This document shows positions 6,852-63,020 of a stretch of 64,000 bases of DNA, piece after piece; the stretch's first letter is position 1, and every line of letters begins with the position of its first letter. The position numbers and the translations under genes are program-made. The DNA comes from an uncultured Pelagibacteraceae bacterium. Its GTDB lineage: Bacteria; Pseudomonadota; Alphaproteobacteria; Pelagibacterales; Pelagibacteraceae. Where the stretch lies: the NCBI GenBank assembly GCA_902567785.1, contig CACFOR010000004.1:25890-89889 (forward strand), in the 5' to 3' direction. The notes below the pieces were generated by a model that saw nothing but the letters and a program-made list of their open reading frames with translations, searched no databases and had not been told where the DNA came from.

Positions 6852-9800
6852 ATGGAATTATATAAAAAAAATTTAAAAAAATTAATACAAGGAAAAGTAT
6901 ATGATCCAAGTTTTGAACACGATGCTTGTGGAGTTGGTTTTATTGCATCCACTGAAGGTAAAAAATCACGAAAAGTAGTAGAATTTGGAATTCAAGCATT
7001 AAAAGCAGTTTGGCATCGAGGAGCTGTGGATGCAGATGGAAAAACTGGAGACGGAGCGGGTATACATGTTGAAATTCCCAAAGATTTTTTTATCGAAAGA
7101 ATTGAAAATGCTGGAAGAAAACATAAAGAAGGAATAATTTGTGTTGGCATGATATTTCTTCCAAGAAATGATTATGCTTCACAGGAAAAATGCAAAACAA
7201 TAGTGGAAAATGAATTACTTAGTAAAAATTATTATATTTATAGGTGGAGACAAGTTCCGGTTAATACAAAAGTTCTTGGAATCAAAGCTGAAAGTAATAG
7301 ACCAGAGATAGTACAGATTATTTTCAAGTCTAATAATAAAAGTTTAAAATCTGATGAACTTGAAAGGGAATTGTTTGTTGTCAGAAAGAAAATTGAAAAA
7401 CAATCAAATTTACAGAAAATAAAAGATTTTTATATAGCTTCTTTTAGTTCTAGATCCATTATTTATAAAGGTATGTTTTTGGCTGAAGCTTTATCAGAAT
7501 TTTACCCAGATTTATTAGATGAAAGATTTATTTCAAGATTTGCAATTTTTCATCAAAGATACTCAACAAATACCTTTCCAAGTTGGGATTTGGCTCAACC
7601 TTTTAGAACATTAGCCCACAATGGAGAAATTAATACAATAAAAGGAAATATTAATTGGATGAAAATTCACGAGAAAGATATGAATAGCAAACTTTTTGAG
7701 GAAATTGAATCTTTAAAGCCAGTTATTGGACTTGGAAATTCTGATTCTGCAGCTTTGGATAATGTTTTTGAATTACTAGTTAGATCAGGAAAATCCGTAC
7801 CACTCGCAAAACTTATGCTTATTCCAGATGCTTGGTCAAAAAGAAGAAAAACAGTTTCAAAAGCACATCAGCAATTATTTAATTTTTTAAATAGCACTAT
7901 CGAACCATGGGATGGGCCAGCCGCTATTGCAGCTACTGACGGAAAATGGATTATTGCCGCACAAGACAGAAATGGATTACGCCCTTTAAGATATACAATT
8001 ACTTCTGACAAGTTGTTATTTGCGGGTTCTGAAACTGGAATGATTTCTTTTCCAAACGAAAAAATTATTTTCAAAGGAAGACTTGGGCCAGGCCAGGCTA
8101 TTGCTATAGATTTTGAAAAAGGTCAGGTTCACGATAGCAAAAGTTTAAAAAATAAAATCTCAAAAGATTATAAAAAGTATAATAAGCAAATTATAGATTT
8201 GGATAAGAAATTTAATATTACGAAGGAAAAATTTATTTTTAGAGGAGAAGAATTGCGAAGACGCCAGTTTCTAGCTGGAATGAATGTCGAAGATATGGAA
8301 CTAATTTTACATCCAATGGTAGAGGATATAAAAGAAGCTGTAGGTTCGATGGGCGACGATACTCCTGCTGCTGTATTATCTGATAAATATAGACCTTTTG
8401 CGCATTTTTTTAGACAAAACTTTAGTCAGGTAACAAATCCACCAATCGATTCCTTAAGAGAAAATGAAGTTATGAGTTTAAAAACTCGCTTCGGTAATAC
8501 AGGAAACATACTTGATTTTGAAAATTTAACAGAAGAAAATATTTATGTTTTAGACAGCCCAGTATTATCAAACTCACAGTTCGAAAAATTTTTTGAGTTT
8601 TTTAAAAGAAATACTAAAATTCTTGATTGTACTTTTAATATAAAGGATGGTTTAAAAAAAAGGTTAGAAGATCTGCGTTTAGAAGCAGAAACTTCTGTAC
8701 GCGAAGGAGGAAAACACTTGATATTAAGTGATAAAGGAACTGATGAAAAAAAAGCACCAATACCAATGGCTTTAGCCATTGGAGCTATTAATTCAAGACT
8801 TGTAAATATGGGTATCAGGGGTTTTGCTTCAATTAATGTTCAAACCTCAGAAGTTTTAGACACGCACTCTTTTGCTGTTTTATTAGGTGTTGGAGCTACA
8901 ACGGTAAATCCTTACATTGCTTTTGATTCTATTTACCAAAGATATGAAAAAAAATTATTTGGAAAACTTAGTTTTAAAGAATGTGTCGAGAGATATGTAA
9001 AATCAGTAGATAACGGTTTGTTGAAAATAATGTCTAAAATGGGTATCTCAGTTTTAAGTGCTTATAGAGGTGGATGCAATTTTGAAGCTGTCGGACTAAG
9101 TAGATCAGTTGTAGCTGAGTATTTTCCAGGCATGATATCTAGAATATCGGGCATAGGAATTATCGGTATTGAGAAAAAAATAAAAAAACTTCACCAAAAA
9201 GCTTTTGAAAAAAATATTTCAATTCTTCCAATTGGTGGAATTTACAAGTACAGAAAAAATGGCGAAACCCACCAATACCAAGGAAATTTAATTCATACAT
9301 TGCAGTCTGCAGTAAGTTCTAATTCTTATGAGGTGTACAAAAAATATGCAGAGGGAATTTATAACTTACCCATAATAAATTTACGAGATCTTTTAGAGTT
9401 TAAAAAATTAAATAAATCTGTAAGTCTTGAAGAAGTTGAAAGTATTGAAAGTATTAGGAAAAGATTTGGAAGCGGAAGTATGTCACACGGAGCTTTGTCT
9501 TCCGAAGCACATGAAACTTTAGCTATCGGAATGAATAGAATGGGAGCTGCTTCCTGTAGTGGAGAGGGAGGAGAAGACCAAAAGAGATTCATAAGAAAAG
9601 AAAATGGAGATAGTTCAAATTCAAAAATTAAACAGATAGCCTCCGCACGATTTGGAGTGACAATAGAATATTTAAATAATTGTAAAGAAATTGAAATCAA
9701 GATTGCACAAGGAGCTAAACCTGGTGAAGGCGGACAACTTCCTGGTTTTAAAGTATCGAAAGAAATTGCAAAATTAAGGCATTCTACACCAGGAGTAACT

Positions 9801-17509: not shown

Positions 17510-19908
17510 TAACTTCTTTGTCATGGTTAAAAAATCATTTAGAAACGAAAGCAAACTTAAATCAAGTAGCAGAACGTTTGACAGAAATTGGACTAGAGGT
17601 AGAAAATATAAAATCATCAAATGAAAATTTAGATAACTTTATTGTTTGTAAAGTTGTGAAATCTCAAAAACATCCTAACGCAGACAAATTAAAGCTTTGT
17701 GATGTAGATATAGGATCGGGAGCATTAGTCAAAGTTGTATGTGGAGCTCAAAATGCTAGAGACGGCTTATTTGCGGTCTATGCACCTCCTGGAGCAGTTA
17801 TTCCAAAAACTAACATGAAATTAAAAATAGCAAAAATAAGAGGAATAGAATCTCATGGAATGCTTTGTTCAGGTTATGAACTTGATGAATCTTCAGACAA
17901 AGAAGGAATTATTGAATTAAATAAAAAAGAAAAAAATATTGGAGAAAAATATTTTAAAAATACTGGGGAAAAAACTATGGACATTGCTATTACTCCAAAT
18001 AGACCCGATTGTTTAGGAGTCAGAGGAATTGCTAGAGATTTGGCATCATCTGGTCTTGGACGTTTAAAAAAACAACCTCTTATCAAAATAAATCAAAAAT
18101 TTAAAAATCCAGTTAAGGTTTCAATAAGGAAAGAAAAAGGACAAGGATGTGCTATTTTTGGAAGCGTTTATATTAGAAATGTTCAAAACAAAGAGAGTCC
18201 TGATTGGTTAAAAAAAAGAATTATTTCTTTAGGTTTAAAACCAGTTTCAGCAATCGTAGATGCTACTAATTATGTAATGTTTGATTTAAACAGACCTTTG
18301 CACGCTTATGATGCTGATAAAATTAACCAAGAAATTATTGTTAGAAATTCAAAAAAAGGAGAGTCATTCGAAGCTCTAGATAATAAAAAATATACACTTG
18401 AAAATAACATGTGTGCAATAACTGATAAATCAGGCGTTTTAGGTCTTGGAGGAATTATTGGTGGAACCAGATCTGGTACGGAGATTTCTACAAAAAATAT
18501 TTTATTAGAATCTGCATATTTTTTTCCATCATCAACCAGAAAAACCTCAAAAATACTAAATATTGATACTGATGCAAAATTTAGGTTTGAAAGAGGGATA
18601 GATCCAGATTCTATAAAATTAGGTCTAGAACTTGGTATGTGCATGATATTGGATATGTGTGGTGGTGAAGCAAGTAAATTTTCAATAGTAGGTAAGTTAA
18701 AAGATGAAAGAAAAATGATTGATTTAGAACCAGAGAAATTTTCAAAAGTTATCGGATTTACAATTACTAGTGTAGAAATAAAGAAAATTTTAACGTCTCT
18801 AGGCTGTTCTCTGAAAACGAATGGAAAGAAAATGAAAGTTCTTCCACCGACTTGGAGACCAGATATTAAAGAAGATATAGACCTTATAGAAGAGTTAACA
18901 AGAATTAAAGGATACGATAAAGTACCTTTAATTAGTCCAGAAAAAGAAAATGTTAAAGATACATTAAATTATAGACAAAAACTTTTTCATTTTGCTCAAA
19001 GATCAGTTGCGTCAAAAGGCTATACAGAAGCAGTTACTTGGTCGTTTACAGATTCAAAAACAAATGTTCTATTTTCAGAATTAAAAAGTGAGATAAAATT
19101 ATCTAATCCTATTTCAACCGATTTAGATGTACTGAGGTCATCTCTTTATTCAAATTTAATTATTGGAGCTAAAAAAAATATTCATAGAAATTTTGAAGAT
19201 CTAATGTTATTTGAGATAGGGCCTGTTTTTAAAGGTAATAAGCCTGGGGAACAATTAACCATGATTGGTGCAATTAAAACTGGAAAATATTCAAGAAAAA
19301 ATTGGATTGAAAAAGAAAGAAATTTTGATGTCTTTGATATTAAAAACGATGCTTTGAGAACTTTAAACGAAATTGGCATTGATAGTTCAAAGATAACAGT
19401 AAGCAATAAATCAAAAAAATGGTACCACCCAGGAAGATCTGGCTTATTGTCATTGGGATCGGAAAGTGGTCTAGAATTGGCATACTTTGGAGAAATTCAT
19501 CCATCAATTATTAAAAAATTAGATCTAAAAGCAGATAATATTTTAGGTTTTGAAATTTTTTTAGAAAATGTACCTGAGTCTAGAAAAAAAATTAGAGAAG
19601 CAAAGCCCCAATTTGCTGTTTCTGATTATCAAAAAGTGATCAGAGATTTTGCTTTTGTTATTGATGAAAAATATAGTTCTGGAGAAATTATAAATTTTGT
19701 TAAAAAAATTGATAAGGATTTGATCAAAAATGTTAAAATTTTTGATGTTTATCAGGGAGAAAATATTACACCAGGTAAGAAATCTATTGCCTTTAGTGTA
19801 ACGTTGGAACCTAAAGATAAAACTTTAGAAGAAAAAGATATTGATGAAATAAGTAAAAAAATCATATCTACAGTTCAAGAAATAACGGGTGCCACTTTAA
19901 GAACCTAA
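17506..19908 (+). CDS. pheT: Phenylalanyl-tRNA synthetase beta subunit
   Basis: 800 aa with a tRNA-binding N-domain, B3/4, B5 and FDX-ACB domains. It overlaps pheS by 4 nt. Confidence 0.95.
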
Positions 19909-21716
19909 TGTCTACAAATGAAAATATACGCAATTTTTCAATAATTGCGCACATTGATCACGGAAAATCTACTCTGGCAGATAGATTGATACATAAGTGT
20001 GGAGGTCTTACGGAAAGAGAAATGAAGGATCAAGTTTTAGATTCAATGGATATAGAGAGAGAAAGAGGAATTACTATAAAGGCACAAACAGTTCGATTAA
20101 ATTATAAAGCTCAGAATGGAAAAGACTATATTTTAAATATCATTGATACGCCGGGTCATGTAGATTTTAGTTATGAAGTAAGCAGATCTCTGTCAGCTTG
20201 CGAAGGATCTATATTGATAGTTGATAGTGCACAAGGTGTTGAGGCACAAACTTTGGCGAATGTGTATCAGGCTCTTGATAATAATCACGAAATTATTCCA
20301 GTACTTAACAAGATAGATTTGCCTGCTTCAGATACAGATAAAGTAAAAAAACAAATAGCAGATGTAATAGGAATAGATGTTACTAACACAATAAATTGCT
20401 CAGGAAAAACGGGAGAAGGAGTAGACGAAATTTTAGAATCCATAATAAAAATTTTACCTCCGCCAAAAGGTAACATAAAAAATCCCTTGAAATGTTTACT
20501 CGTGGATAGTTGGTATGACAGTTATTTAGGAGTAGTAATTTTAGTTAGAACTATAGACGGAAGCTTGAAAAAAGGAATGCAAATAAAAATGATGTCAAAT
20601 AATAGTAAACACACAATTGAAAAAGTGGGTGTGTTTACTCCAAAACCAAAAGATATGGATGTAATTTCATCAGGAGAAATTGGTTTTATTATTACTGGGA
20701 TTAAAAATTTATCAGATACTAAAGTTGGTGACACCATATGTGATGTAGCAAATCCAATAGATAAACCTCTGCCTGGATTTAAACCCAGCAAGCCAGTAGT
20801 TTTTTGTGGTTTATTTCCAGTAGATAATTCTGAGTATCAAAAACTTAAAGATGGTATCGCAAAGTTAAAACTTAATGATTCTAGTTTTTCTTATGAGCCT
20901 GAGGCCTCAAGTGCTTTGGGCCTAGGTTTTCGTTGTGGTTTTTTAGGTTTGCTTCACTTAGAGATAGTAACCCAAAGATTAGAAAGAGAATTTAATATTA
21001 ATCTCATTACAACAACACCTGGTGTAATTTATAAGATTAACAAAAGAGATGGTTCAACTAAAGAATTACAGAATCCAACAGACATGCCAGATCCAACTCA
21101 AATTTTATCAATAGAAGAGCCTTGGATAAAGGCAACAATAATTACTCCCGACAAGTATTTGGGATCAATAATAAAAATATGCCAGGATAAAAGAGGAATT
21201 CAAAATAATTTAACTTATTCCGGAAATCGTGCTGTCCTGAATTATGAATTACCACTTAACGAAGTAGTTTTTGATTTTTATGATCGACTAAAATCTATTT
21301 CAAGCGGATATGCTAGTTTTGACTATGAAATAACAGAATACAAAGAAGGAAATTTAGTTAAAATGGGTATACTTGTTAATTCAGAACCTGTCGACGCTTT
21401 ATCTATGATTATTTATAAAGATTTTGCTCAATCACAAGGAAGACTAGTTTGTGAAAAGCTTAAAGAATTAATCCCTAGGCATAATTTTCAAATTCCAATT
21501 CAAGCTGCTATCGGAGGAAAAATTATTGCTAGAGAAACAATTAAAGGATTTAAAAAAGATGTTCTCACAAAAATTCATGGGGGAGGAGCACGAGACAGAA
21601 AAAGAAAGCTGTTAGATAAACAGAAAAAAGGTAAAGCAAGAGCTAAACAGTTTGGAAAAGTGGAAATTCCGCAAGAAGCTTTTATTGGAGTTTTAAAAAT
21701 AAATAAGGAAACTTAA
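19908..21716 (+). CDS. lepA: Elongation factor 4 (LepA)
   Basis: 602 aa with GTPase motifs [14 protein letters not shown] and NKID, and a LepA C-terminal domain. Confidence 0.95.
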
Positions 21717-21718
21717 AT

Positions 21719-21808
21719 GGAGAGATGGCCGAGCGGTTTAAGGCGCAGGCTTGGAAAGCTTGTGTACTGTCAAAGGTACCGTGGGTTCGAATCCCACTCT
21801 CTCCGCCA
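21719..21808 (+). tRNA. tRNA-Ser (anticodon GGA), long variable arm, CCA encoded
   Basis: Hand-folded. The acceptor is GGAGAGA/TCTCTCC. The anticodon stem is CAGGC/GCTTG with loop TTGGAAA. The T arm is GTGGG-TTCGAAT-CCCAC. Total length is 90 nt. Confidence 0.9.
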
Positions 21809-23380
21809 TTAACTCTGATCCTTTTTTTCTTGGTCTGAATTTTCCTGTTCGAGAGGTAGACCTAACCTTCTTTCTTCCATTTTTTTTAAATTTTCCCTTT
21901 CAATCTCTTTTGTTGTTTCAACTTCTTTAATTTGTATTTTTCTAGCTTCTTCTGCCCTTTGTTTTCTTTCTTGTTCTTCTTTTAATCTCCTGCTTTTCTC
22001 TTCTTCTTTTAATTTTTTTTCTATTATTCTTTTTGCCTCTTCAAGACGGTTTGATCTATCTCTTTCTATTTCTTCTATTTTATTTTTATGAATTTTATCC
22101 AATTTTCTTCTAGCTTCATTTTCTTCTGATATTCTTTTTTCTTTTAATTTATTTATTTCCTCAAGGTGTGAGAGTTTTTTTTGTTCAGCGTCATCTAATT
22201 TATTTTTGTAAGTTTGTTCCGTTTTTTCAATTAATTTTCTCTCTTCTTCAATTCCTTTTTCTTTTTTTATTTTTATTAAATTTAATTTTTTTGAAGTTTC
22301 ATCTTCATCTGCTTTTATTCTTCTTTCCTCTTCTTCTAGCAATCTTCTTTCTTCATCTTCTTCTAATTTTATTCTTTTTTCTTTTTTAATTTTTCCCTCT
22401 TCTTCTTTCAATCTCCTATTTTCTTCTAGCAATCTTCTTTTTTCTTCTTCTTTAAATCTTATATTTTCTTCCTCTTCTAATATTCTTATAGATTCTTCTT
22501 CTAAGCTTTTTTCTCTTTCTTTTAGTAATATTTGTTCATCTCTTATTTTTCTTATGATCTCATCATTTGATCTTCTTTTTTCTTCAGCTTTTAACCTTCT
22601 TTCTTTTTCTTTTTTTAAATTATTCTCTTCTTTTTCTTTTAGTATTCTGTTTTCTTCTTTTATCTTTGATAGTTCTTCTAATTCTAATCTTCTTGTTTCT
22701 TCAGCTTTAGTTTTTTTTAATTCTTTTTTTGCGATTCTTCTTTGTTTTTCTTTTTCTATTTTTTCCTTATAATGTTGATCCAATTTCCCCTTTTCTATCT
22801 GTTCTTCTTCTATTCTTTTTTCTTTTAATTTATTTATTTCCTCAATAGCTATTATGTTTTCATTTTCTATTTTTTCTAATTTTTCATTGTAAGTTTGGTT
22901 CATCTCTTCCAATTTTTGTTGCTCATCTATTATTCGCTTTTCTTTTAATTGGGAAATCCTTTCAAGTTCTCCCAGTTTTTCTTGTTCTGCTTTTGCTATA
23001 CCCTCCTTATAAATTGGATCAATTTTTTCCCGCTCTTCTTGTTCTTCTTTTGTCTTTCTCTCTTGTTCAATTCTTATAAAGCTAATTTCTTTTAATCTAT
23101 TTTCTTCCTCTTTTTTTAACTGTTTTTCTTCTTCTTTTAACTGTTTTTGTTCTTCTTTAATTTGTTTTTCCCTATTTTTTTCTTTTAATTTTTCTTTTTC
23201 CTTTTTTTCTCTTTCGCGTTTTTCTGTAAAATTTTTATAAATTTTGCCTAGAGTTTTAAATTTAAGATCTACAGCTTTTTGCAGATCTATACCCGCTCCA
23301 TTAATTTTATTTTTATTATAATTTTTGGTTTTTCTTTTTTTAACTCTCTTTTTAGTTTTTTTTCTCATAATCCCTCTCAA
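21809..23380 (-). CDS. E/K/R-rich charged coiled-coil repeat protein (function unknown)
   Basis: 523-aa uninterrupted ORF, which is unlikely by chance in AT-rich DNA. It has a basic N-terminus followed by near-continuous EEKRRLKEEE-type heptad-like sequence with three (E)INKLKEKRI..E...KLD..YK.KIE repeats. Its stop codon directly abuts the tRNA CCA. Confidence 0.6.
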   Translation of the reverse strand: MRGIMRKKTKKRVKKRKTKNYNKNKINGAGIDLQKAVDLKFKTLGKIYKNFTEKREREKKEKEKLKEKNREKQIKEEQKQLKEEEKQLKKEEENRLKEISFIRIEQERKTKEEQEEREKIDPIYKEGIAKAEQEKLGELERISQLKEKRIIDEQQKLEEMNQTYNEKLEKIENENIIAIEEINKLKEKRIEEEQIEKGKLDQHYKEKIEKEKQRRIAKKELKKTKAEETRRLELEELSKIKEENRILKEKEENNLKKEKERRLKAEEKRRSNDEIIRKIRDEQILLKEREKSLEEESIRILEEEENIRFKEEEKRRLLEENRRLKEEEGKIKKEKRIKLEEDEERRLLEEEERRIKADEDETSKKLNLIKIKKEKGIEEERKLIEKTEQTYKNKLDDAEQKKLSHLEEINKLKEKRISEENEARRKLDKIHKNKIEEIERDRSNRLEEAKRIIEKKLKEEEKSRRLKEEQERKQRAEEARKIQIKEVETTKEIERENLKKMEERRLGLPLEQENSDQEKKDQS

Positions 23381-23473
23381 ACAAAGAATTATTGTACACC
23401 TATTTTAACTGATAAAGGATACTAAATAGTTCGCTTTGGGTTTCGTAATTGAGGCATATATACCAATGTTCTC

Positions 23474-23540
23474 GGCGCAGGCTTGGAAAGCTTGTGTACT
23501 GTCAAAGGTACCGTGGGTTCGAATCCCACTCTCTCCGCCA
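23474..23540 (+). repeat. Direct repeat copy 2 of the tRNA-Ser 3' 67 nt (att core-like)
   Basis: Identical by eye to 21742..21808 (ggcgcaggcttggaaagc...ctctctccgcca). Confidence 0.9.
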
Positions 23541-23620
23541 TTAATTTAAGCTTTTCTATTCTTAAGTGTGGCGTTAAAATCGGTTTGGTCGCACTATGGT
23601 CGCAAATGAAATGAAAAAAA
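23541..23620 (+). repeat. Left (P'-like) arm, copy 1
   Basis: About 75/80 nt identical to 24557..24636. It contains GGTCGCActatGGTCGCA, two direct motifs 11 bp apart. Confidence 0.8.
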
Positions 23621-24162
23621 ATGAGAAATACTTTGTTGAGAATTCAAAAAAACTAGACGAAGCTTTTAAAATTCTAGAGTTGGAGCCCGAAACTGATATA
23701 GCCAAAGATAAAACAGAAGGTTATTTAATAGACGTTAATAAGATGGCTGAAAATATAAAAGGCGATATTATAAAAATGGCGCATTTTTTAAAAAATTTAA
23801 AAGATGTTCCAACTTATCCAGATGGTCCAATAAATGACGTTCTAAAAAAAAGATTTTTTGAAGTTTTTAACGCCATGTCAATTTATGTGTGTGCTATTAA
23901 AAAAATAAAAAATAAAGATGAAGCGATCTCAGAAATTAATCGCCATCTATATAGAGAAAAAACGTATAATGACCCAATAAACAAATTTATGATGCCAATA
24001 GCTGGTGTTTTTTTGCTAGCATGTTCAGTTTTAATGATCACAACGGACGCACCAAATATTATGAAAATTCCAGATAATAATCGTTGGTGGCTGACAGTAT
24101 TTCTTGCTGCGGTGGGTTTTAGCATCCTTGTTAGAAGTTATTGGTTTCGAAATAAAAAATGA
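23611..24162 (+). CDS. Hypothetical protein with two C-terminal TM helices
   Basis: The ORF track gives 23596..24162. The first 15 nt lie inside the conserved arm repeat, so the ATG at 23611 (MKKNEKYF...) is preferred. The C-terminus carries hydrophobic segments MMPIAGVFLLACSVLMI and WWLTVFLAAVGFSILV. Confidence 0.5.
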   Translation: MKKNEKYFVENSKKLDEAFKILELEPETDIAKDKTEGYLIDVNKMAENIKGDIIKMAHFLKNLKDVPTYPDGPINDVLKKRFFEVFNAMSIYVCAIKKIKNKDEAISEINRHLYREKTYNDPINKFMMPIAGVFLLACSVLMITTDAPNIMKIPDNNRWWLTVFLAAVGFSILVRSYWFRNKK

Positions 24163-24407
24163 AAAAGATTAAAAAAAAAACGGAAACAAAAAAGGAAATT
24201 GAAGAAAGGGTAAGAAAAGAAGAAAAAGAATCAAATTTTCGTGAAAAAAAAAGAAATAGCCACATACTCTTCATGGGGATTTTCGGTGCTATAATTGGAA
24301 TAATATTTGTTAGTGTTAAATATCCATACGCAACTACCTTTGGAATAATAGGTGGAGCTATCACTGGTGGTTTGATTGGTGCAGCGATCGGAGATCATAC
24401 TGGATAA
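24159..24407 (+). CDS. Small membrane protein with glycine-zipper C-terminus
   Basis: 82 aa with an ATGA overlap to the upstream ORF. It has a K/E-rich N-terminus, then GIFGAIIGIIF...GIIGGAITGGLIGAAIG (GxxxG repeats). Confidence 0.45.
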   Translation: MKKIKKKTETKKEIEERVRKEEKESNFREKKRNSHILFMGIFGAIIGIIFVSVKYPYATTFGIIGGAITGGLIGAAIGDHTG

Positions 24408-24408
24408 C

Positions 24409-24489
24409 GATCGCACTCTGGTCGCAATCCAACTTAAATTTTAAGATTTCTCTGTTAAATAAATATTGATTTTGCTACGTTAAAAAATT
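24409..24489 (+). repeat. Right (P-like) arm, copy 1
   Basis: About 75/81 nt identical to 26651..26731. It begins GaTCGCActctGGTCGCA and ends ...attgattttgctacgttaaaaaatt directly before the tRNA fragment. Confidence 0.8.
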
Positions 24490-24556
24490 GGCGCAGGCTT
24501 GGAAAGCTTGTGTACTGTCAAAGGTACCGTGGGTTCGAATCCCACTCTCTCCGCCA
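24490..24556 (+). repeat. Direct repeat copy 3 of the tRNA-Ser 3' 67 nt
   Basis: Identical by eye to 21742..21808. Confidence 0.9.
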
Positions 24557-24636
24557 TTAATTTAAGCTTTTCTAATATTAAGTGTGGCGTTAAAATCGGT
24601 TTGGTCGCACTGTGGTCGCAAATGAGATGAGAAAAA
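24557..24636 (+). repeat. Left (P'-like) arm, copy 2
   Basis: See 23541..23620. It contains GGTCGCActgtGGTCGCA. Confidence 0.8.
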
Positions 24637-25427
24637 TACAAAAATGCCCTGCATGTAGAAAAGCAAAAGGCGGAAAAAGAATAACACTAATTAATGCAAA
24701 ATTCGTTCACGAAAATTGCGCTGAATTTTTAGAAAACAGACCAAATGAAATTTCTCGTGAAATGAACTATCTTTATATAAAAAAAAACAGCTTAATAAAT
24801 AAAATAAAATCTATATTTAGTTTTAACCTAGAAAATAGCACTGAATTTATTGAAGCTAAGTTAACTTTATTAAGTCATGAAAGTCAGAAAATTCAAAATT
24901 TAAGAAAAAAAATTTATCACTTTTGGCCTGACTACCCGCCAGATTGGGAGGAAAGACGACAAGAAGCTTTAGAAAAAGCAGAAGAACAGTGTGAGGATTG
25001 TGGAGAATCAAAAGATTATTATGGTTTTTTGCACGTTCACCATATCAAATTCAGAGGAAGAGGTGGAAATCATAAGCCTTCAAATCTAATGGTTCTTTGT
25101 CACAACTGTCACGAGGAAAAACATGGAGGAATCACTTTCGGTGATAACAAAAAAACTTATAGACCCTCAGCTTATCCTGAACGTATAAAAACTATAAAAA
25201 AAGCAATTAAATTGAAGAAAATTGTTAATTTCACTTATTATAAAGTTAAAGAAAAAAGATTTATGAAAAGAAAAGTGAAACCTCATAAGCTAACAAAGGA
25301 AATTTTAGTTGATGGAAAAATAAAGTATATCGTTGATAATTTATATTTGGTTGGATATTGTTTTTTGAGAGAAGATAGAAGAACTTTTAGATTAGACAGA
25401 ATGAAGGGTTTAAAAATAGAAAAATGA
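24627..25427 (+). CDS. HNH endonuclease fused to a C-terminal WYL domain (N-terminal Cys-rich segment)
   Basis: The ORF track gives 24612 (GTG) to 25427; the first ATG is at 24627. The HNH core is CEDCG...HVHHIKFRGRGGNHKPSNLMVLCHNCHEEKH. The WYL-like C-terminus is VNFTYYK...RKVKPHKL...LYLVGYCFLREDRRTFRLDRM. The N-terminus has CPACRK...HENC. Confidence 0.75.
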   Translation: MRKIQKCPACRKAKGGKRITLINAKFVHENCAEFLENRPNEISREMNYLYIKKNSLINKIKSIFSFNLENSTEFIEAKLTLLSHESQKIQNLRKKIYHFWPDYPPDWEERRQEALEKAEEQCEDCGESKDYYGFLHVHHIKFRGRGGNHKPSNLMVLCHNCHEEKHGGITFGDNKKTYRPSAYPERIKTIKKAIKLKKIVNFTYYKVKEKRFMKRKVKPHKLTKEILVDGKIKYIVDNLYLVGYCFLREDRRTFRLDRMKGLKIEK

Positions 25428-25597
25428 AAACATTTGAAAAAGAATTTGAACTTAAAACTAAATTAGAAACATTAGATCACTACGTTCGATCCATACTTAA
25501 TAAATTTGATCCTGACGATGAAATAGAAGTTGATATTCAAGAATTTGATGGAAAGAAGATAGTGAACGTTAAGATATTAGATAGGGTGCTGAATTAA
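25424..25597 (+). CDS. Small hypothetical protein (57 aa, acidic), below the ORF-track size cutoff
   Basis: Hand-translated as MKTFEKEFELKTKLETLDHYVRSILNKFDPDDEIEVDIQEFDGKKIVNVKILDRVLN*. It has an ATGA overlap with the HNH-WYL stop and a TAATG overlap with the next ORF. Confidence 0.4.
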   Translation: MKTFEKEFELKTKLETLDHYVRSILNKFDPDDEIEVDIQEFDGKKIVNVKILDRVLN

Positions 25598-25830
25598 TGG
25601 ACGACAAAGATTTCAAAAAAAAGTTTGAGGAAGCAAATCCAAATATAAAACTTGTACGAAGAACAAAAGAAAGAACTGAAGCATCAGCAAAACGCGTGAC
25701 ATTTGCGTTAGGTGGAATGGGTCTATTTATATTTATGGGCATAATGTCTGGAGCACCGTTCTGGGTACATCTTGTGGTGGTTCCATTAATTGGTGCGATT
25801 TTTTATTTTGGAGCTCCAAGTGAAAAATAA
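25597..25830 (+). CDS. Small membrane protein (two predicted TM helices)
   Basis: 77 aa with a charged N-terminus followed by FALGGMGLFIFMGIMSGAPFWVHLVVVPLIGAIFYF. Confidence 0.45.
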   Translation: MDDKDFKKKFEEANPNIKLVRRTKERTEASAKRVTFALGGMGLFIFMGIMSGAPFWVHLVVVPLIGAIFYFGAPSEK

Positions 25831-26107
25831 AAAAAAACATAAATATGGAACTGGAAATATTATAGATGATTTTCCGCATTATCCCGACAATTATAGGGAT
25901 CACCGCACATATATTTATCAACTAAGTGAATCAAAAATACAAACACATCCAAATAAAAGTATGGAAGGGAAAAAACAATGGTCTGTTGTTCAATATCGAA
26001 ATGTTTTGCCACCGCGTGTAGTTAATCTTTGGAGCTTTCCAACAAAAGAAGAAGCAGAATCATTCATGAAAAAACATGATTTTGTGATCCCTTCAAAACA
26101 AAATTAA
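25790..26107 (+). CDS. Hypothetical protein (start uncertain; an in-frame GTG near 25817 would remove most of the overlap)
   Basis: 105-aa ORF with no recognisable motif. It ends TAATG-coupled to the nuclease gene. Confidence 0.4.
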   Translation: MVRFFILELQVKNKKKHKYGTGNIIDDFPHYPDNYRDHRTYIYQLSESKIQTHPNKSMEGKKQWSVVQYRNVLPPRVVNLWSFPTKEEAESFMKKHDFVIPSKQN

Positions 26108-26562
26108 TGAAAAAACTTTTAACGATCTTGGTTCTGGGCTTGTTGTTTTGCAGCAACAGTTTCGCAGATAGCCTAAGAGTAGTGGATGGCGACACAATCG
26201 TGCTCAATGGTGAGAAAATTCGTTTCTCTGGCATAGACACACCTGAATTAAAACAAACGTGCATGAAGGGAGATGAAAAGGTTTTCTGTGGAAAAACAGC
26301 AAAGATGCTTCTTATTAAAAAAATAGGCAATGAAACACCTGAATGTATCAGCGAAGGAAAGGATGCTTATAAAAGAACGTTAGCAGAATGTTTTGTTAAC
26401 GGGGAAAGTTTATCATCATATCTTGTGAGAAGTGGTTATGCTTTTGCTTATCGAAAATACTCAAAAAAATTTATTAAAGACGAAGAGTTTGCAAAAGAAA
26501 ATAAACTAGGGATGTGGGCGATGATGTTTCAATATCCATGGGATTTTAGAAAGGCATCATAA
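26107..26562 (+). CDS. Secreted staphylococcal-nuclease (SNase/thermonuclease)-like nuclease
   Basis: 151 aa with a signal peptide (MKKLLTILVLGLLFCSNSFA). It carries the SNase signature VVDGDTIVLNGEKIRFSGIDTPE, plus ...RTLAECF...LVRSGYAFAY...EEFAKENKLGMW. Confidence 0.8.
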   Translation: MKKLLTILVLGLLFCSNSFADSLRVVDGDTIVLNGEKIRFSGIDTPELKQTCMKGDEKVFCGKTAKMLLIKKIGNETPECISEGKDAYKRTLAECFVNGESLSSYLVRSGYAFAYRKYSKKFIKDEEFAKENKLGMWAMMFQYPWDFRKAS

Positions 26563-26650
26563 TAATATGCAATATTTCTTTGTTCCTATAATTGGTTTGA
26601 TTATATTCATACTTATCGTGATGCTGGTCTGAAAAAATGATAAATAATCT

Positions 26651-26731
26651 GGTCGCACTCTGGTCACAAACCAACTTCAATTTTAAGATTTTTCCGTTAA
26701 ATAAATATTGATTTTGCTACGTTAAAAAATT
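26651..26731 (+). repeat. Right (P-like) arm, copy 2
   Basis: See 24409..24489. It begins GGTCGCActctGGTCaCA. Confidence 0.8.
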
Positions 26732-26798
26732 GGCGCAGGCTTGGAAAGCTTGTGTACTGTCAAAGGTACCGTGGGTTCGAATCCCACTCTTTCCGCCA
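26732..26798 (+). repeat. Direct repeat copy 4 of the tRNA-Ser 3' 67 nt (one C>T difference at 26791)
   Basis: 66/67 identical to 21742..21808. It reads ctctTtccgcca where the tRNA has ctctCtccgcca. The downstream flank differs from the arms. Confidence 0.9.
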
Positions 26799-26826
26799 TC
26801 TGTGGGATTTTATAAAAAATAAAAAT

Positions 26827-28119
26827 TTAGACACATTCTATAACTCCATTGATTCCCAATTTAACTTTAGCTTCCAGGCCATAAGCAGGAGTTTCATCTA
26901 TTTCTAATACAGTAACTCTTTTTTCTAGTACATTGTAACTACTTTTAGTTGAGCACAGCTCTGACGCTTTACTTTCAAAGTCAGATTTTAACTGATCCAT
27001 AATTTTTTTTCCTTTTTTGGTGTTGGTTTCGTACTGACTAAGTCTTACCCATTTCTTTGCGACAATTGATATATTTAACGTATCCTTTCCTGAGTATTTT
27101 TTTGTTAGAACATCTGTTTTACTTATACATGGAACGCTAGATCCATCTTTATTAATGCATTGGCCCATTCCTTCCTCTTGCCCTTCGAGAAATTTACCTA
27201 CATAGGCAGTTCCATCTTCATAACTAAAAGTTCCTTGTCCGTGCCTTTTTCCATTAGCAAATTCTCCAACGTATTTTTTTCCATCAGGGTAAAACAAGGT
27301 TCCTTCGCCGTGTAATTTATCATTTTGAAAATCTCCTAAGTACTTTCTTCCGTCATTCCAAATTTTGGTACCATTTCCATGACTTTTACCGTCTTTCCAC
27401 GCACCAAAATATTTGTCTCCATTAGACCATTCAAACGTTCCATATCCATTTGGCAAAAAATTTTTAAATTCACCAACATATTTTGCACCACCCGGATATA
27501 AAGATATTCCTTTAAGAATTTTTCCATTTATAAAATAGCCAATGTATTTATGACCACTATTAGATATGTATGAACCCCTACAATTTGTCCATTTTTCATA
27601 TTTATTACCCTGGCACTCGCTTAATGAACTTTGTTCTTTTTTAATTTTTTCTTGTGCTTTTAATATTTCTTTTTTCTCTTTACTAATTTTCACTTCATCA
27701 ATTTTTTTTTTGTCCCAATCAGCTTTTACGTTTTTACATAAGCTTTGTCTTTTATCATACAAATTATATAAATCGATATCAGATCCCTTTTCTCTTTTGA
27801 ATTGTAATTTAAGTACAGATTTAGAATCAGAATTTAAAAAATATTGATAGTAAAGATTTTCACCTTGGGCACTCTTTATTTTTTCGCTTGTAATTTTATT
27901 TTTTTCAATTAATTTTATTTTGTCCTTAAAATTTTGCACGGCTCCATCAGCAGCTCTTAATTCCACTTCAATAACATTTTTATTAATATCAATCACATAA
28001 TTCCCTTCTACTGCATTGCTTATTATACATTCTTTAAAATAGTACGATTCCGCAAAGCTTAGGTTGCAAAAAAATATGTTTAATATAGCTATAAAAAGTA
28101 CTCTTTTCATATTAATCAT
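26827..28119 (-). CDS. Secreted MORN-repeat protein
   Basis: 430 aa with a signal peptide (VLFIAILNIFFCNLSFA). It has about 6-7 tandem YxGxxxxxxxxGxG MORN units (YVGEFKNFLPNGYGT, YFGAWKDGKSHGNGT, YLGDFQNDKLHGEGT, YVGEFANGKRHGQGT...). Confidence 0.8.
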   Translation of the reverse strand: MINMKRVLFIAILNIFFCNLSFAESYYFKECIISNAVEGNYVIDINKNVIEVELRAADGAVQNFKDKIKLIEKNKITSEKIKSAQGENLYYQYFLNSDSKSVLKLQFKREKGSDIDLYNLYDKRQSLCKNVKADWDKKKIDEVKISKEKKEILKAQEKIKKEQSSLSECQGNKYEKWTNCRGSYISNSGHKYIGYFINGKILKGISLYPGGAKYVGEFKNFLPNGYGTFEWSNGDKYFGAWKDGKSHGNGTKIWNDGRKYLGDFQNDKLHGEGTLFYPDGKKYVGEFANGKRHGQGTFSYEDGTAYVGKFLEGQEEGMGQCINKDGSSVPCISKTDVLTKKYSGKDTLNISIVAKKWVRLSQYETNTKKGKKIMDQLKSDFESKASELCSTKSSYNVLEKRVTVLEIDETPAYGLEAKVKLGINGVIECV

Positions 28120-62042: not shown

Positions 62043-62118
62043 GGCCAGGTAGCTCAGTCGGTAGAGCAGAGCCCTGAAAAGGCTTGTGTCGGCGGTTCGA
62101 TTCCGTCCCTGGCCACCA
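62043..62118 (+). tRNA. tRNA-Phe (anticodon GAA), CCA encoded
   Basis: Hand-folded. The acceptor is GGCCAGG/CCTGGCC. The anticodon stem is GAGCC/GGCTT with loop CTGAAAA. The T arm is GGCGG-TTCGATT-CCGTC. Total length is 76 nt. Confidence 0.9.
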
Positions 62119-62943: not shown

Positions 62944-63020
62944 GCAGCAGTAGCTCAGTTGGTTAGAGCACTAGTTTGTGGAACTAGGGGTCGGTGGTTC
63001 GAATCCACCCTGCTGTACCA
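62944..63020 (+). tRNA. tRNA-His (anticodon GUG) lacking an encoded G-1; discriminator A73; CCA encoded
   Basis: Hand-folded. The acceptor is GCAGCAG/CTGCTGT (G1:U72). The anticodon stem is CTAGT/ACTAG with loop TTGTGGA. The T arm is GGTGG-TTCGAAT-CCACC. The base at -1 is T. Confidence 0.9.

What the first reader, a model, noticed from the sequence alone, without database searches (positions are those of the whole stretch)
24627..26562. Module C: HNH-WYL fusion nuclease plus secreted SNase-like nuclease, a candidate undescribed defence or exclusion cassette
The first gene fuses a Cys-rich N-terminal segment, an HNH nuclease core (HVHH...N...CHNCH) and a C-terminal WYL domain (LYLVGYCFLREDRRTFRLDRM). 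WYL domains are ligand- or nucleic-acid-sensing modules that recur in regulators and effectors of prokaryotic defence systems. Direct fusion to a nuclease suggests a sensor-effector in one polypeptide. The cassette ends with a signal-peptide-bearing staphylococcal-nuclease homologue. Three tightly coupled small ORFs lie between the two, one of them membrane-embedded. Two nucleases of different families on a 2.2-kb tRNA-integrated cassette in a genome that otherwise looks minimal is unusual. The combination may act in anti-phage defence, in inter-element competition, or in DNA scavenging (the secreted nuclease).
Basis: partly seen in the sequence, partly recalled or inferred. Interest (0 to 1): 0.7.

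Follow-up and report, generated by a model that had tools for sequence, protein, structure and literature searches.

The report
Nuclease cargo on integrase-less tRNA cassette
A small gene cassette with no integrase of its own sits at a serine tRNA gene of a probable SAR11 (Pelagibacter) genome and carries an uncharacterised HNH-WYL nuclease, a small acidic partner protein and an exported nuclease; it is a plausible but untested anti-phage module and suggests how these streamlined ocean bacteria might swap genes.

Summary
ORF 24627-25427 encodes a 266-aa protein with a zinc ribbon, a coiled coil, an intact HNH nuclease and a WYL domain. ORF 26107-26562 encodes a signal-peptide staphylococcal-type nuclease with intact catalytic residues.

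The genes lie on a 2.2-kb cassette bounded by exact 68-nt copies of the 3' part of tRNA-Ser(GGA). It is the third cassette in a tandem array, and no integrase lies in the window.

New here: cassettes B and C carry a 19-nt double-heptamer motif (GGTCGCACTNTGGTCRCAA) at both inner ends. In other low-GC marine contigs the same motif flanks the attachment site and abuts the integrase gene of about 6.4-kb integrase+primase elements. One of these lies in a Pelagibacteraceae single-cell genome and one assembles as a circle. The cassettes are therefore probably non-autonomous relatives moved in trans (inferred).

HNH-WYL is a widespread unnamed family; the domain fusion was listed in 2014. Its WYL domain keeps the arginines implicated in single-stranded-DNA binding in Pif1. 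Some relatives sit beside restriction-modification genes or a candidate defence gene. In marine low-GC lineages it usually pairs with a small acidic protein.

The defence role rests on association only. The five genes are a mosaic, not a fixed system.

The parts
21719..21808 (+). Intact tRNA-Ser(GGA), directly downstream of lepA (19908-21716). It is the anchor of the cassette array. Its 3' 67 nt plus the next base form the 68-nt att core (21742-21809).
   Evidence: ARAGORN; Rfam tRNA 58.1 bits; lepA TIGR01393 931.6 bits; core coordinates
21810..23473 (-). Cassette A: a 523-aa Glu/Lys-rich repetitive protein (21809-23380, minus strand). It has no 19-nt motif.
   Evidence: In L065 the same gene is flanked by an att copy and a degenerate att copy, and lies distal to an SNase cassette.
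23474..23541 (+). att copy 2 (68/68 identical to the tRNA 3' part)
23542..24489 (+). Cassette B: left arm with motif 23587-23605, two membrane-protein genes (23611-24162 and 24159-24407), right arm with motif 24409-24427.
24490..24557 (+). att copy 3 (68/68)
24558..24629 (+). Left arm of cassette C. It is nearly identical to the left arm of B. The 19-nt motif GGTCGCACTGTGGTCGCAA lies at 24603-24621 and is followed by ATGAGATG, whose second ATG (24627) starts the first gene.
24627..25427 (+). HNH-WYL protein, 266 aa: CCHC zinc ribbon (C7, C10, H28, C31), helical hairpin (29-97), HNH (C122, C125, H138, H139, N153, C158, C161, H162, H166) and WYL barrel (182-264).
   Evidence: Pfam; alignments A1 and A3; AlphaFold2 pLDDT 92.7, pTM 0.82; Foldseek; PDB profile search
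25424..25597 (+). p57: a 57-aa acidic protein (pI 4.8). Its start overlaps the HNH-WYL stop (ATGA). It is the recurrent neighbour of HNH-WYL.
25597..25830 (+). p77: a small protein with a hydrophobic C-terminal half (two likely transmembrane helices). No homologues were examined.
   Evidence: sequence reading
25820..26107 (+). p95: a basic 95-aa protein starting at GTG 25820. It is a conserved gene and is found elsewhere without SNase.
26107..26562 (+). Exported staphylococcal-type nuclease, 151 aa: signal sequence, 4 Cys in the mature part, catalytic residues conserved.
26651..26731 (+). Right arm of cassette C. The motif GGTCGCACTCTGGTCACAA lies at 26651-26669 and is followed by 62 nt that are 96% identical to the right arm of B.
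   Evidence: (family D4)
26732..26799 (+). att copy 4 (67/68), the last copy. Chromosomal flank follows (MORN-repeat protein gene 26827-28119, minus strand).

Best explanation
Module C is the cargo of a small mobile cassette with no integrase (24558-26731). It is integrated in tandem with two others at tRNA-Ser(GGA) of a probable Pelagibacter chromosome.

The cassette keeps only the cis parts of an integrative element. These are tRNA-derived att cores and, at both inner ends, a double-heptamer site (GGTCGCA twice, 11 bp apart). In related elements this site flanks attP and abuts the integrase gene. I infer that the site is the arm-type binding site (and int-promoter operator) of a phage-type tyrosine integrase. 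I further infer that the cassette is excised and inserted by such an integrase supplied in trans. The first cargo gene is expressed from the position where the integrase gene used to be.

The cargo is nucleic-acid-conflict equipment.
(1) A stand-alone HNH-WYL DNase. Its WYL barrel binds single-stranded DNA (phage replication or recombination intermediates, or damage) and thereby recruits or activates the HNH active site.
(2) A translationally coupled small acidic protein, p57, which may restrain or tune the nuclease.
(3) An exported Ca-dependent-type SNase that degrades DNA outside the cytoplasm.

Shown: the anatomy, the domains, intact catalytic and ssDNA-binding residues, the recurrence of the motif, the existence of autonomous relatives including a circular form, and the defence-gene neighbourhoods.

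Inferred: trans-mobilisation, ssDNA triggering, the role of p57, and the anti-phage function.
For: Cassette:
- Four att cores.
- The motif occurs 4 times, exactly at the inner ends of B and C, against 0 expected.
- No integrase or primase homologue lies in the 64-kb window.

Relatives:
- The motif flanks both ends of a 6.3-kb element with an integrase (PF00589, 68.8 bits) and a DUF5906 primase at tRNA-Asn in Pelagibacteraceae SAG AG-893-K09.
- The motif lies 13 nt upstream of the integrase ATG in about 18 metagenome loci targeting tRNA-Asn or tRNA-Thr.
- L051 is circular, with a 123-nt exact terminal overlap and a 6445-nt unit. Two motifs 229 nt apart flank the tRNA fragment.
- L080 and L081 keep only about 20 and about 48 codons of the integrase gene after the motif.
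- Cassette order and junction partners differ between strains (L065, L073, L078).

Nuclease:
- Pfam and a model with pLDDT 92.7.
- The WYL domain matches ssDNA-bound DriD and CapW structures.
- The best sequence match is the WYL domain of Pif1, E 5e-15. Its five ssDNA-contact arginines align to R215, R248, R252, R255 and R258 (PMC9964779).
- HNH and zinc ligands are invariant in 34 diverse homologues.

Partner: p57-like genes abut HNH-WYL in 4 of 6 marine low-GC lineages, on either side. pI is 4.8 against 9.7.

Defence context:
- L102: type I REase, 4e-129. L103: PDC-S19, 4e-134. L001: type II MTase plus Vsr.
- p57 in L105 lies between Mza genes and a GajB-like helicase.
Against: - No experiment or complete known system supports defence (PADLOC).
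- No integrase was found that targets tRNA-Ser. All nine tRNA-Ser left-arm copies seen (window x2, L042, L059, L067, L082, L083, and the shorter L078 and L073) lack an adjacent int gene.
- The known integrase-bearing relatives use other tRNAs, with the core in the opposite orientation to the arms. Trans-mobilisation would therefore need relaxed or different core recognition.
- No excised circle of an integrase-less cassette was seen.
- Two of five distant HNH-WYL neighbourhoods (L100, L104) show no PADLOC hit.
- p57 is much commoner than HNH-WYL and occurs without it. It may be a backbone or hot-spot gene rather than a partner.
- The Pif1 precedent shows that a WYL domain can be a passive ssDNA-binding module rather than a switch.
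Confidence: 0.5

Rival explanations
1. Fossil array. The att copies and arms are scars of old integrations whose integrases were deleted. The cassettes no longer move. Differences in order between strains come from homologous recombination between the 68-nt repeats or from replacement of the whole island.
For: - No integrase lies in the window, and none is adjacent to any tRNA-Ser arm.
- Truncated integrases exist (L080, L081).
- Cassette A has lost or degraded its motif, and att copy 4 has a mismatch.
- SAR11 islands are thought to diversify by homologous recombination (Biller 2025, PMC11876622, citing Lopez-Perez 2014).
Against: - Three att copies are 68/68 identical.
- The arms of B and C are 94-96% identical although their cargo is unrelated.
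- The same arms with yet other cargo occur in many metagenome contigs (L082, L075, L095, L078).
- Together these argue for purifying selection on the cis sites or for recent movement.
Confidence: 0.3
2. Addiction or stabilisation pair. HNH-WYL is a toxin and p57 is its labile antitoxin or immunity protein. The pair mainly keeps the cassette in the genome rather than defending against phage.
For: - Tight, often overlapping adjacency in either gene order in four lineages.
- A small acidic protein next to a basic nuclease.
- The location on a mobile cassette.
Against: - HNH-WYL relatives outside the marine low-GC group lack any p57-like neighbour.
- p57 is about 40 times more diverse or abundant than HNH-WYL and sits beside other genes.
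- The model leaves the WYL domain unexplained.
Confidence: 0.15
3. Nutrient scavenging. The selected cargo is the exported SNase, which releases nucleotides or phosphate from environmental DNA for a nutrient-limited cell. HNH-WYL is an unrelated passenger.
For: - The SNase has a signal sequence, disulfide-type Cys and an intact active site.
- SNase plus the right arm is the most conserved cassette end (88-96% identity in L065 and L073) with changing upstream genes.
- Tycheposon cargo in Prochlorococcus is often nutrient acquisition (bioRxiv 10.1101/2020.12.28.424599).
Against: - No phosphatase, nucleotidase or transporter accompanies it.
- SNase also links to HNH-WYL in an independent arrangement (L002).
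- It hits a PADLOC candidate model (SNc+LTD, 1.9e-9).
Confidence: 0.15
4. Selfish homing endonuclease. HNH-WYL is a free-standing homing nuclease that inserts next to the highly conserved p57 gene, with the WYL domain and zinc ribbon as DNA-binding modules.
For: - The gene is sporadic: 16 clusters against at least 709 for p57.
- It occurs on either side of p57.
- p57 alleles 89% identical to the window's lack it (L105).
- PHROG hits are all 'HNH endonuclease'.
Against: - The full-length architecture is conserved across distant bacteria with no p57 and in non-phage contexts next to restriction or defence genes.
- p57 co-diverges with HNH-WYL (35% against 52-59% identity), which suggests old linkage.
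- No close relative lies in 2.9 million viral contigs or 50,697 phage records.
Confidence: 0.1

Closest known systems
wHTH-WYL-WCX regulators (CapW, BrxR, DriD, PafBC)
   Same: The WYL beta-barrel has the same fold (Foldseek E 4e-6 to 1e-4). The canonical R..P / R.FR.DR residues that bind ssDNA are kept. The defence-island neighbourhood is similar.
   Different: There is no N-terminal winged helix and no C-terminal WCX domain; the protein ends at the WYL barrel. The output is a fused HNH nuclease, not transcription control. The whole-protein TM-score is at most 0.27.
Bacterial Pif1 helicases with a C-terminal WYL domain (8bns, 8bnv; PMC9964779)
   Same: This is the closest WYL by sequence (E 5e-15), including the preceding helix. 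All five modelled ssDNA-contact arginines align. In both, the WYL domain is fused to a DNA-processing enzyme.
   Different: The enzyme is an HNH nuclease with a zinc ribbon and coiled coil, not an SF1 helicase.
HNH nucleases of McrA, IscB/Cas9 and ZorE type
   Same: A beta-beta-alpha-metal core with two CxxC zinc pairs and H-N-H residues. Hits: McrA 6ghc 2.9e-10, IscB about 1e-9, ZorE PADLOC 4.8e-11.
   Different: Scores are far below the family cut-offs (IscB 52.7 against 175; ZorE 28.5 against 600). There is no RuvC domain, guide RNA or Zor partner, and no modified-base reader.
Tycheposons and tycheposon-like or P4/PICI-like small integrative elements of marine bacteria (Hackl et al., bioRxiv 10.1101/2020.12.28.424599; Biller et al. 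2025, PMC11876622)
   Same: Integration into tRNA 3' ends, partial tRNA repeats, tandem arrays, degraded remnants inside islands, and tyrosine recombinase + primase backbones in the autonomous relatives (L018, L051).
   Different: The window cassettes have no recombinase or replication gene at all. They are 0.9-2.2 kb long and keep only the arms. The related integrase is an ordinary phage-type enzyme (37% identity to Pseudomonas phage integrases). Membership in the tycheposon recombinase clade was not tested.
Cis-mobilizable elements (CIMEs) that accrete with ICEs at tRNA or fda sites in Streptococcus (from my own knowledge, not checked here)
   Same: Elements bounded by att sites that lack recombination genes, sit in tandem with related elements, and are thought to be moved by an integrase in trans.
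   Different: No autonomous partner with the same core site was found. The host, size and arm architecture differ.
Integron cassette arrays
   Same: Arrays of short, promoter-poor cassettes with unrelated cargo separated by a repeated recombination site. The first gene begins right after the conserved end.
   Different: The repeats are tRNA fragments plus arms, not attC hairpins. There is no IntI or attI.

Membership tests
HNH endonuclease (PF01844) | Profile match above the curated cut-off | tested here: met
   38.6 bits against 21.4
HNH endonuclease (PF01844) | Catalytic His, structural Asn and metal-ligand His, plus two CxxC zinc pairs | tested here: met
   H138, H139, N153, H162, H166, C122, C125 and C158 are invariant, and C161 is at least 90% conserved, in 34 diverse homologues
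WYL domain (PF13280) | Profile match above the cut-off, and an Sm-like barrel fold | tested here: met
   51.1 bits against 21.8. Foldseek matches to PafBC, BrxR, CapW and DriD, probability 1.00, on a model with pLDDT 92.7
WYL domain (PF13280) | Basic ligand-pocket residues that contact ssDNA | tested here: met
   R215, R248, R252, R255 and R258 align with DdPif1 R464, R491, R495, R498 and R501 (PMC9964779). Actual binding was not tested.
wHTH-WYL-WCX transcription regulators (CapW/BrxR/DriD) | N-terminal winged-helix DNA-binding domain and C-terminal WCX domain | tested here: not met
   No HTH hit. The N-terminus is a zinc ribbon plus helical hairpin, and the protein ends at residue 266 right after the barrel.
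Staphylococcal nuclease (PF00565) | Profile match and catalytic or Ca-ligand residues D21, R35, D40, T41, E43, R87 | tested here: met
   61.9 bits against 21. Pairwise alignment to S. aureus nuclease (sequence and residue roles from my own recollection) shows the DGDT, R-x4-DTPE and Y-x-R motifs conserved.
Any known anti-phage system in PADLOC-DB v2 | Full complement of system proteins | tested here: not met
   Only generic domain hits: WYL, ZorE-like HNH, SNc+LTD candidate. p57, p77 and p95 have no hits.
Zorya type II (ZorE) | ZorE equivalog score, and ZorA/ZorB partners | tested here: not met
   NCBIfam ZorE 28.5 bits against a cut-off of 600. No Zor hit among the seven cassette B and C proteins scanned with PADLOC; the flanking chromosomal genes were not scanned.
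Autonomous integrative element (tycheposon / PICI / P4-like) | Flanking full and partial tRNA att repeats | tested here: met
   68-nt cores, four copies
Autonomous integrative element (tycheposon / PICI / P4-like) | Own tyrosine recombinase and replication module inside the element | tested here: not met
   No integrase or primase homologue in the cassettes or in the 64-kb window
Non-autonomous, cis-mobilizable cassette | att sites and arm sites shared with an integrase-bearing relative | tested here: inconclusive
   The arm motif is shared exactly. However, the relatives use tRNA-Asn or tRNA-Thr cores in the opposite orientation, and no tRNA-Ser integrase was found.
Non-autonomous, cis-mobilizable cassette | Excision or integration by an integrase supplied in trans | not testable with these tools
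   This needs long-read junction evidence or an experiment. Only indirect evidence is available: different cassette orders and partners between strains.
Integron gene cassette | attC site and IntI integrase | tested here: not met
   The repeats are tRNA fragments. No integron integrase was found.
Toxin-antitoxin / nuclease-immunity pair (HNH-WYL + p57) | Conserved adjacency and translational coupling | tested here: met
   4 of 6 marine low-GC lineages, with overlaps of 1-4 nt
Toxin-antitoxin / nuclease-immunity pair (HNH-WYL + p57) | Physical binding and neutralisation | not testable with these tools
   No complex prediction or experiment was available

The most novel reading that the evidence does not exclude
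SAR11 cells, which are usually described as lacking canonical mobile elements, run an integron-like gene-exchange system. Integrase-less cassettes of 1-2 kb are bounded by tRNA-derived cores and a conserved double-heptamer arm that also supplies the expression signals and start codon. Integrases of small integrase-primase episomes shuffle these cassettes in trans, building arrays at tRNA-Ser(GGA). One cassette delivers a new two-protein immune module: an ssDNA-triggered HNH-WYL nuclease held in check by the acidic p57.
Probability: 0.2. Interest if true: 0.85.

Novelty: new variant of a known kind. Interest (0 to 1): 0.55.

Why it matters
SAR11 is the most abundant bacterial group in the ocean. 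How its streamlined genomes acquire flexible genes is an open question. Recent surveys report partial tRNA repeats inside its islands but 'no canonical mobile genetic elements' (PMC11796062).

A defined cis site shared by autonomous integrase-primase elements and by integrase-less cassettes gives a concrete hypothesis for cassette exchange. The site can be searched for in sequence data and tested in experiments.

Separately, HNH-WYL is a widespread and compact (about 265 aa) single-chain candidate for a nuclease controlled by ssDNA. This would extend the WYL 'ssDNA as danger signal' logic from transcription factors to a direct effector.

Tried and rejected
- Protein-pattern scan of 185,579 species genomes for HNH-WYL: no relative found.
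- Viral contigs and INPHARED phages: only bare HNH hits, no full-length relative. Foldseek against BFVD: domain-only matches.
- Arm motif and left arm in IMG/VR: 0 hits. A pelagiphage origin of the attP is rejected: phage hits to the attP-like junction are ordinary tRNA-Ser genes of unrelated phages.
- First AlphaFold run with 14 close sequences failed (pLDDT 49). It was replaced by a 34-sequence alignment.
- A broad alignment was too divergent for a second viral scan.
- p57 as an exclusive partner is rejected, because it is far commoner than HNH-WYL.
- p95 as a dedicated SNase inhibitor is rejected, because its homologue lies in another island without SNase.
- Rfam and promoter/terminator scans of the array found only the tRNA fragments and nothing above chance.
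- Metagenome contigs with HNH-WYL (L001-L010) contain no arm motif or tRNA-Ser core. The gene is therefore not tied to this cassette type.
- The HNH-plus-terminase packaging role is rejected, because no terminase lies in any neighbourhood examined.
Full report
1. OBSERVATION

Pfam places HNH (PF01844, 38.6 bits) and WYL (PF13280, 51.1 bits) in the ORF ending at 25427, and SNase (PF00565, 61.9 bits) in ORF 26107-26562. All three are above the curated cut-offs.

A database protein 100% identical over 266 aa supports ATG 24627 as the start.

Three coupled genes lie between the two nucleases:
- p57 (25424-25597).
- p77 (25597-25830), which is hydrophobic.
- A gene whose homologues, where full-length, are 91-97 aa long. 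It therefore starts at GTG 25820, not at the TTG that gave 105 aa.

The SNase has a signal-like N-terminus and conserved catalytic residues.

The base composition (about 30% G+C), the lepA-tRNA-Ser synteny with low-GC marine contigs and the taxon label of the one genome sharing the arm motif (Pelagibacteraceae) make a SAR11/Pelagibacter chromosome very likely. I did not test the taxonomy directly.

2. ANATOMY OF THE LOCUS

tRNA-Ser(GGA) lies at 21719-21808, immediately after lepA. Its last 67 nt plus one base (21742-21809) recur at 23474-23541 and 24490-24557 (68/68) and at 26732-26799 (67/68). This defines three tandem cassettes:
- A (21810-23473): a 523-aa Glu/Lys-rich repeat protein.
- B (23542-24489): two membrane proteins.
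- C (24558-26731): the finding.

B and C have unrelated cargo but near-identical ends. A 19-nt site, GGTCGCACTNTGGTCRCAA, occurs exactly four times in 64 kb against 0 expected. All four copies are on the + strand. Each lies either 45 nt inside a left att core or 62 nt inside a right att core. The site consists of two GGTCGCA heptamers 11 bp apart.

The left arm stays conserved through ...GGTCGCAAATGARATG, and the second ATG is the start codon of the first cargo gene in B and C.

No integrase or primase homologue is in the window.

3. WHAT THE MOTIF IS

A pattern scan of one genome per species found the motif twice in a single relevant genome, Pelagibacteraceae SAG AG-893-K09. There it lies in direct orientation at both ends of a 6.3-kb insertion at tRNA-Asn. 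The insertion is bounded by a 52-nt partial tRNA copy and encodes:
- a 326-aa tyrosine integrase (PF00589, 68.8 bits);
- a 689-aa DUF5906 primase/helicase-like protein.

The metagenome scan gave 72 loci, of which about 50 have low GC.
- In about 18 of them the motif sits 13 nt upstream of the ATG of this integrase family. The elements target tRNA-Asn or tRNA-Thr(UGU).
- Eight contigs carry two motifs 227-229 nt apart around the tRNA fragment, which is the attP or junction configuration.
- L051 has a 123-nt exact terminal overlap (6445-nt unit) and L056 repeats after 6451 nt. An excised circle, or a tandem form, therefore exists.
- L080 and L081 retain only about 20 and about 48 integrase codons after the motif. 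This is direct evidence that integrase-less derivatives arise by deletion.

I conclude that the motif is a cis site of this element family. It is most probably an arm-type integrase site overlapping the int promoter region. This is an inference from its position and repeat structure; binding was not tested.

4. THE tRNA-Ser LOCUS IN OTHER STRAINS

About fourteen further metagenome contigs carry tRNA-Ser cores next to the same arms. None has an adjacent integrase.
- L042 is the syntenic locus with other cargo (pilin-like genes and a MORN-protease) behind a variant left arm.
- L065 is the syntenic locus read from the other side. An SNase-ending cassette (SNase 88% identical) is followed by an att core, then cassette A, then a degenerate att core, then the MORN gene. 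The order is therefore C'-A there and A-B-C here.
- L073 has the SNase (96% identical) and right arm but different upstream genes.
- L078 shows right arm-att-left arm of another pair.

The array is thus mosaic and differs between strains. Either cassettes move singly, or the identical repeats recombine.

5. THE HNH-WYL PROTEIN

Close relatives are rare: 16 clusters among 5.8 billion proteins, all on short marine contigs.

A profile search of 1.84 billion representatives shows a different picture for the full-length architecture. At least 174 clusters at E<=1e-30 and 1,328 at E<=1e-10 match, mostly about 265 aa long and aligned end to end. The ten fetched range from AT-rich to GC-rich in composition and none carries a functional name.

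Makarova et al. 2014 already list WYL fused to HNH among WYL architectures (PMC4012209). I found no characterisation of such a protein.

Among 34 diverse members the following are invariant or nearly so:
- a CCHC zinc ribbon (C7, C10, H28, C31);
- a PPDW..R motif;
- the two HNH CxxC pairs, H138, H139, N153, H162 and H166;
- the WYL residues R215, P219, R248, R252, F254 and R258.

With that alignment AlphaFold2 gives pLDDT 92.7 and pTM 0.82. The model has a zinc ribbon, a long helical hairpin (29-97), an HNH domain, a linker and a helix plus beta-barrel.

Foldseek against the PDB matches only the WYL part: PafBC, BrxR, CapW bound to ssDNA, and DriD bound to ssDNA (E 4e-6 to 1e-4). The HNH part matches only weakly. 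No solved structure matches the whole protein (TM at most 0.27). BFVD gives only single-domain matches.

By sequence, the nearest WYL is that of thermophilic Pif1 helicases (8bns and 8bnv, E 5e-15; identified through PMC9964779). The five arginines implicated there in ssDNA binding (by modelling, supported by TePif1 mutagenesis and DriD/PafBC structures) align with R215, R248, R252, R255 and R258 of the window protein. CapW and DriD use the same pocket to sense ssDNA as a damage or infection signal (PMC11662680; PMC9186387).

6. THE OTHER CARGO GENES

p57-like genes (35-79% identical) abut HNH-WYL in four of six marine low-GC lineages, upstream or downstream, often with overlapping stop and start codons. 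p57 is acidic (pI 4.8) and the nuclease is basic (pI 9.7).

However, p57 is far commoner (at least 709 clusters at 85-96% identity). In L105-L109 it lies without HNH-WYL between an Mza-type block (MzaC 1e-106, MzaE 8e-81, plus a Dcm-type methylase and TerB) and a GajB-like UvrD helicase or small ORFs.

p95 is a real, conserved gene. Its 67% homologue lies in a different SAR11 island without SNase.

SNase links to HNH-WYL a second time in L002, in a different gene order.

The recurrent core is therefore p57 + HNH-WYL, loosely linked with SNase. The five-gene set is not a fixed system.

7. CONTEXT OF RELATIVES

Among neighbourhoods with several kb of flank:
- L102 has HNH-WYL beside a YgjP-like gene and a type I restriction subunit (4e-129), next to an integrase/ERF/YqaJ block.
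- L103 has it beside PDC-S19 (4e-134) and an integrase.
- L001 has it beside a type II methyltransferase and Vsr.
- L100 and L104 have no PADLOC neighbour.

This is association evidence from only six contexts, so it is suggestive and not statistical.

8. MECHANISM AND RIVALS

My best reading (confidence about 0.5 overall) has two parts.
- That C is a non-autonomous att-and-arm cassette of an integrase-primase element family: about 0.8.
- That it is still mobilised in trans: about 0.45.
- That HNH-WYL is an ssDNA-responsive defence nuclease: about 0.45.

On the nuclease: HNH-WYL binds ssDNA through its WYL pocket and cuts DNA with its HNH site. p57 may modulate it. The exported SNase acts on DNA outside the cytoplasm.

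The rivals are:
- a fossil array reshuffled by homologous recombination;
- a toxin-antitoxin stabilisation pair;
- nutrient scavenging by the SNase;
- a homing endonuclease targeted next to p57.

The main weakness of the mobility model is that no tRNA-Ser-specific integrase was seen. In addition, the autonomous relatives carry their tRNA core in the opposite orientation to the arms.

9. COMPARISON AND NOVELTY

The protein works like a WYL-controlled effector, but it fails the membership test for the wHTH-WYL-WCX regulators (no wHTH, no WCX). It is far below the cut-offs for IscB and ZorE.

The cassette resembles tycheposon remnants, and tycheposon-like recombinase-primase elements have been reported in Pelagibacter (PMC11876622). 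Partial tRNA repeats have been noted in SAR11 islands (PMC11796062). It also resembles the cis-mobilizable elements of streptococci (from my own knowledge).

I did not find these points described elsewhere:
- the shared double-heptamer arm site;
- the replacement of the integrase gene by cargo at the same start position;
- the tRNA-Ser(GGA) cassette array;
- the p57/HNH-WYL pairing.

I therefore rate the finding as a new variant of known kinds, of moderate to good interest.

10. LIMITS

- The contigs are short.
- No complex prediction was possible.
- There is no experimental evidence.
- Taxonomy is inferred.
- The literature search covers open-access text only.

Noticed in passing
window 23587-23605, 24409-24427, 24603-24621, 26651-26669; L016 7443-7461; L018 5649-5667; L028-L099: A 19-nt double-heptamer motif, GGTCGCACTNTGGTCRCAA, marks both inner ends of the integrase-less cassettes. 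In other low-GC marine contigs (one from a Pelagibacteraceae single-cell genome) the same motif flanks attP and lies 13 nt upstream of a 326-aa tyrosine integrase gene. The half-site GGTCGCA also occurs inside the tRNA-Asn core that those elements target.
   Followed up: yes
L051 (6568 nt), L056 (6800 nt): These metagenome contigs of the integrase + DUF5906-primase element are circularly permuted. L051 has a 123-nt exact terminal overlap and a 6445-nt unit. This indicates an excised circle or a tandem form.
   Followed up: partly
L080 ~1044 (-), L081 ~9983 (-): After the motif, the integrase gene is cut down to about 20 and about 48 codons, and unrelated sequence follows. These are snapshots of integrase loss that produces non-autonomous cassettes.
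   Followed up: partly
window 24622-24629 and 23606-23613; L082 ~73-80: The conserved left arm ends in ATGARATG(A). This forms a two-codon mini-ORF (M-K/R-stop) whose stop overlaps the ATG of the first cargo gene in cassettes B and C. L082 has a three-codon variant. This may be a translational coupling or regulatory device.
   Followed up: no
window 21809-23380 (-): Cassette A encodes a 523-aa protein that is almost entirely Glu/Lys/Arg coiled-coil-like sequence, with a 120-nt (40-aa) periodicity. It has no Pfam hit. A homologue (74-84% identical over the aligned segments) lies in L065, where it is the cassette nearest the chromosomal flank.
   Followed up: partly
window 23611-24162 and 24159-24407: Cassette B carries two small membrane proteins (183/188 aa and 82 aa, the latter with a Gly-zipper-like C-terminus). 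No family assignment was found.
   Followed up: no
L105-L109 (p57 at 8001-8174): On low-GC marine contigs, p57 homologues (89% identical) sit between a complete-looking Mza-type defence block (Dcm methylase, AIPR/MzaE, DUF4420, Z1/MzaC, HATPase, TerB) and a GajB-like UvrD helicase. The helicase is absent in L109. The position next to p57 therefore looks like an insertion hot spot for defence genes.
   Followed up: partly
L001 334-939 equivalent (L002 334-939); L110 52-633: A Cys-rich protein of about 200 aa precedes p57 + HNH-WYL in two lineages. In L002 it has an HNH-like C-terminal CxxC/H motif and a weak PtuB hit. The two upstream proteins are not detectably related to each other.
   Followed up: no
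window 62043-62118 and 62944-63020: tRNA-Phe and tRNA-His lie close together near the window's end. A 2026 preprint (10.64898/2026.04.03.716430) reports a Phe/His tRNA pair as one anchor of the universal Pelagibacter hypervariable region. The window may therefore end at that region.
   Followed up: no
window 26827-28119 (-); L042 1962-3182; L065 2459-3745: A secreted MORN-repeat protein is the conserved chromosomal flank of the array. L042 carries a paralogous MORN-trypsin-like fusion and type IV pilin-like genes as island cargo at the same tRNA-Ser.
   Followed up: no
L046 ~4082, L099 ~2679, L093 ~14: Integrase-less cassettes with the same motif also occur at tRNA-Thr. Their first genes encode small secreted or membrane proteins. 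The non-autonomous form is therefore not confined to tRNA-Ser.
   Followed up: no
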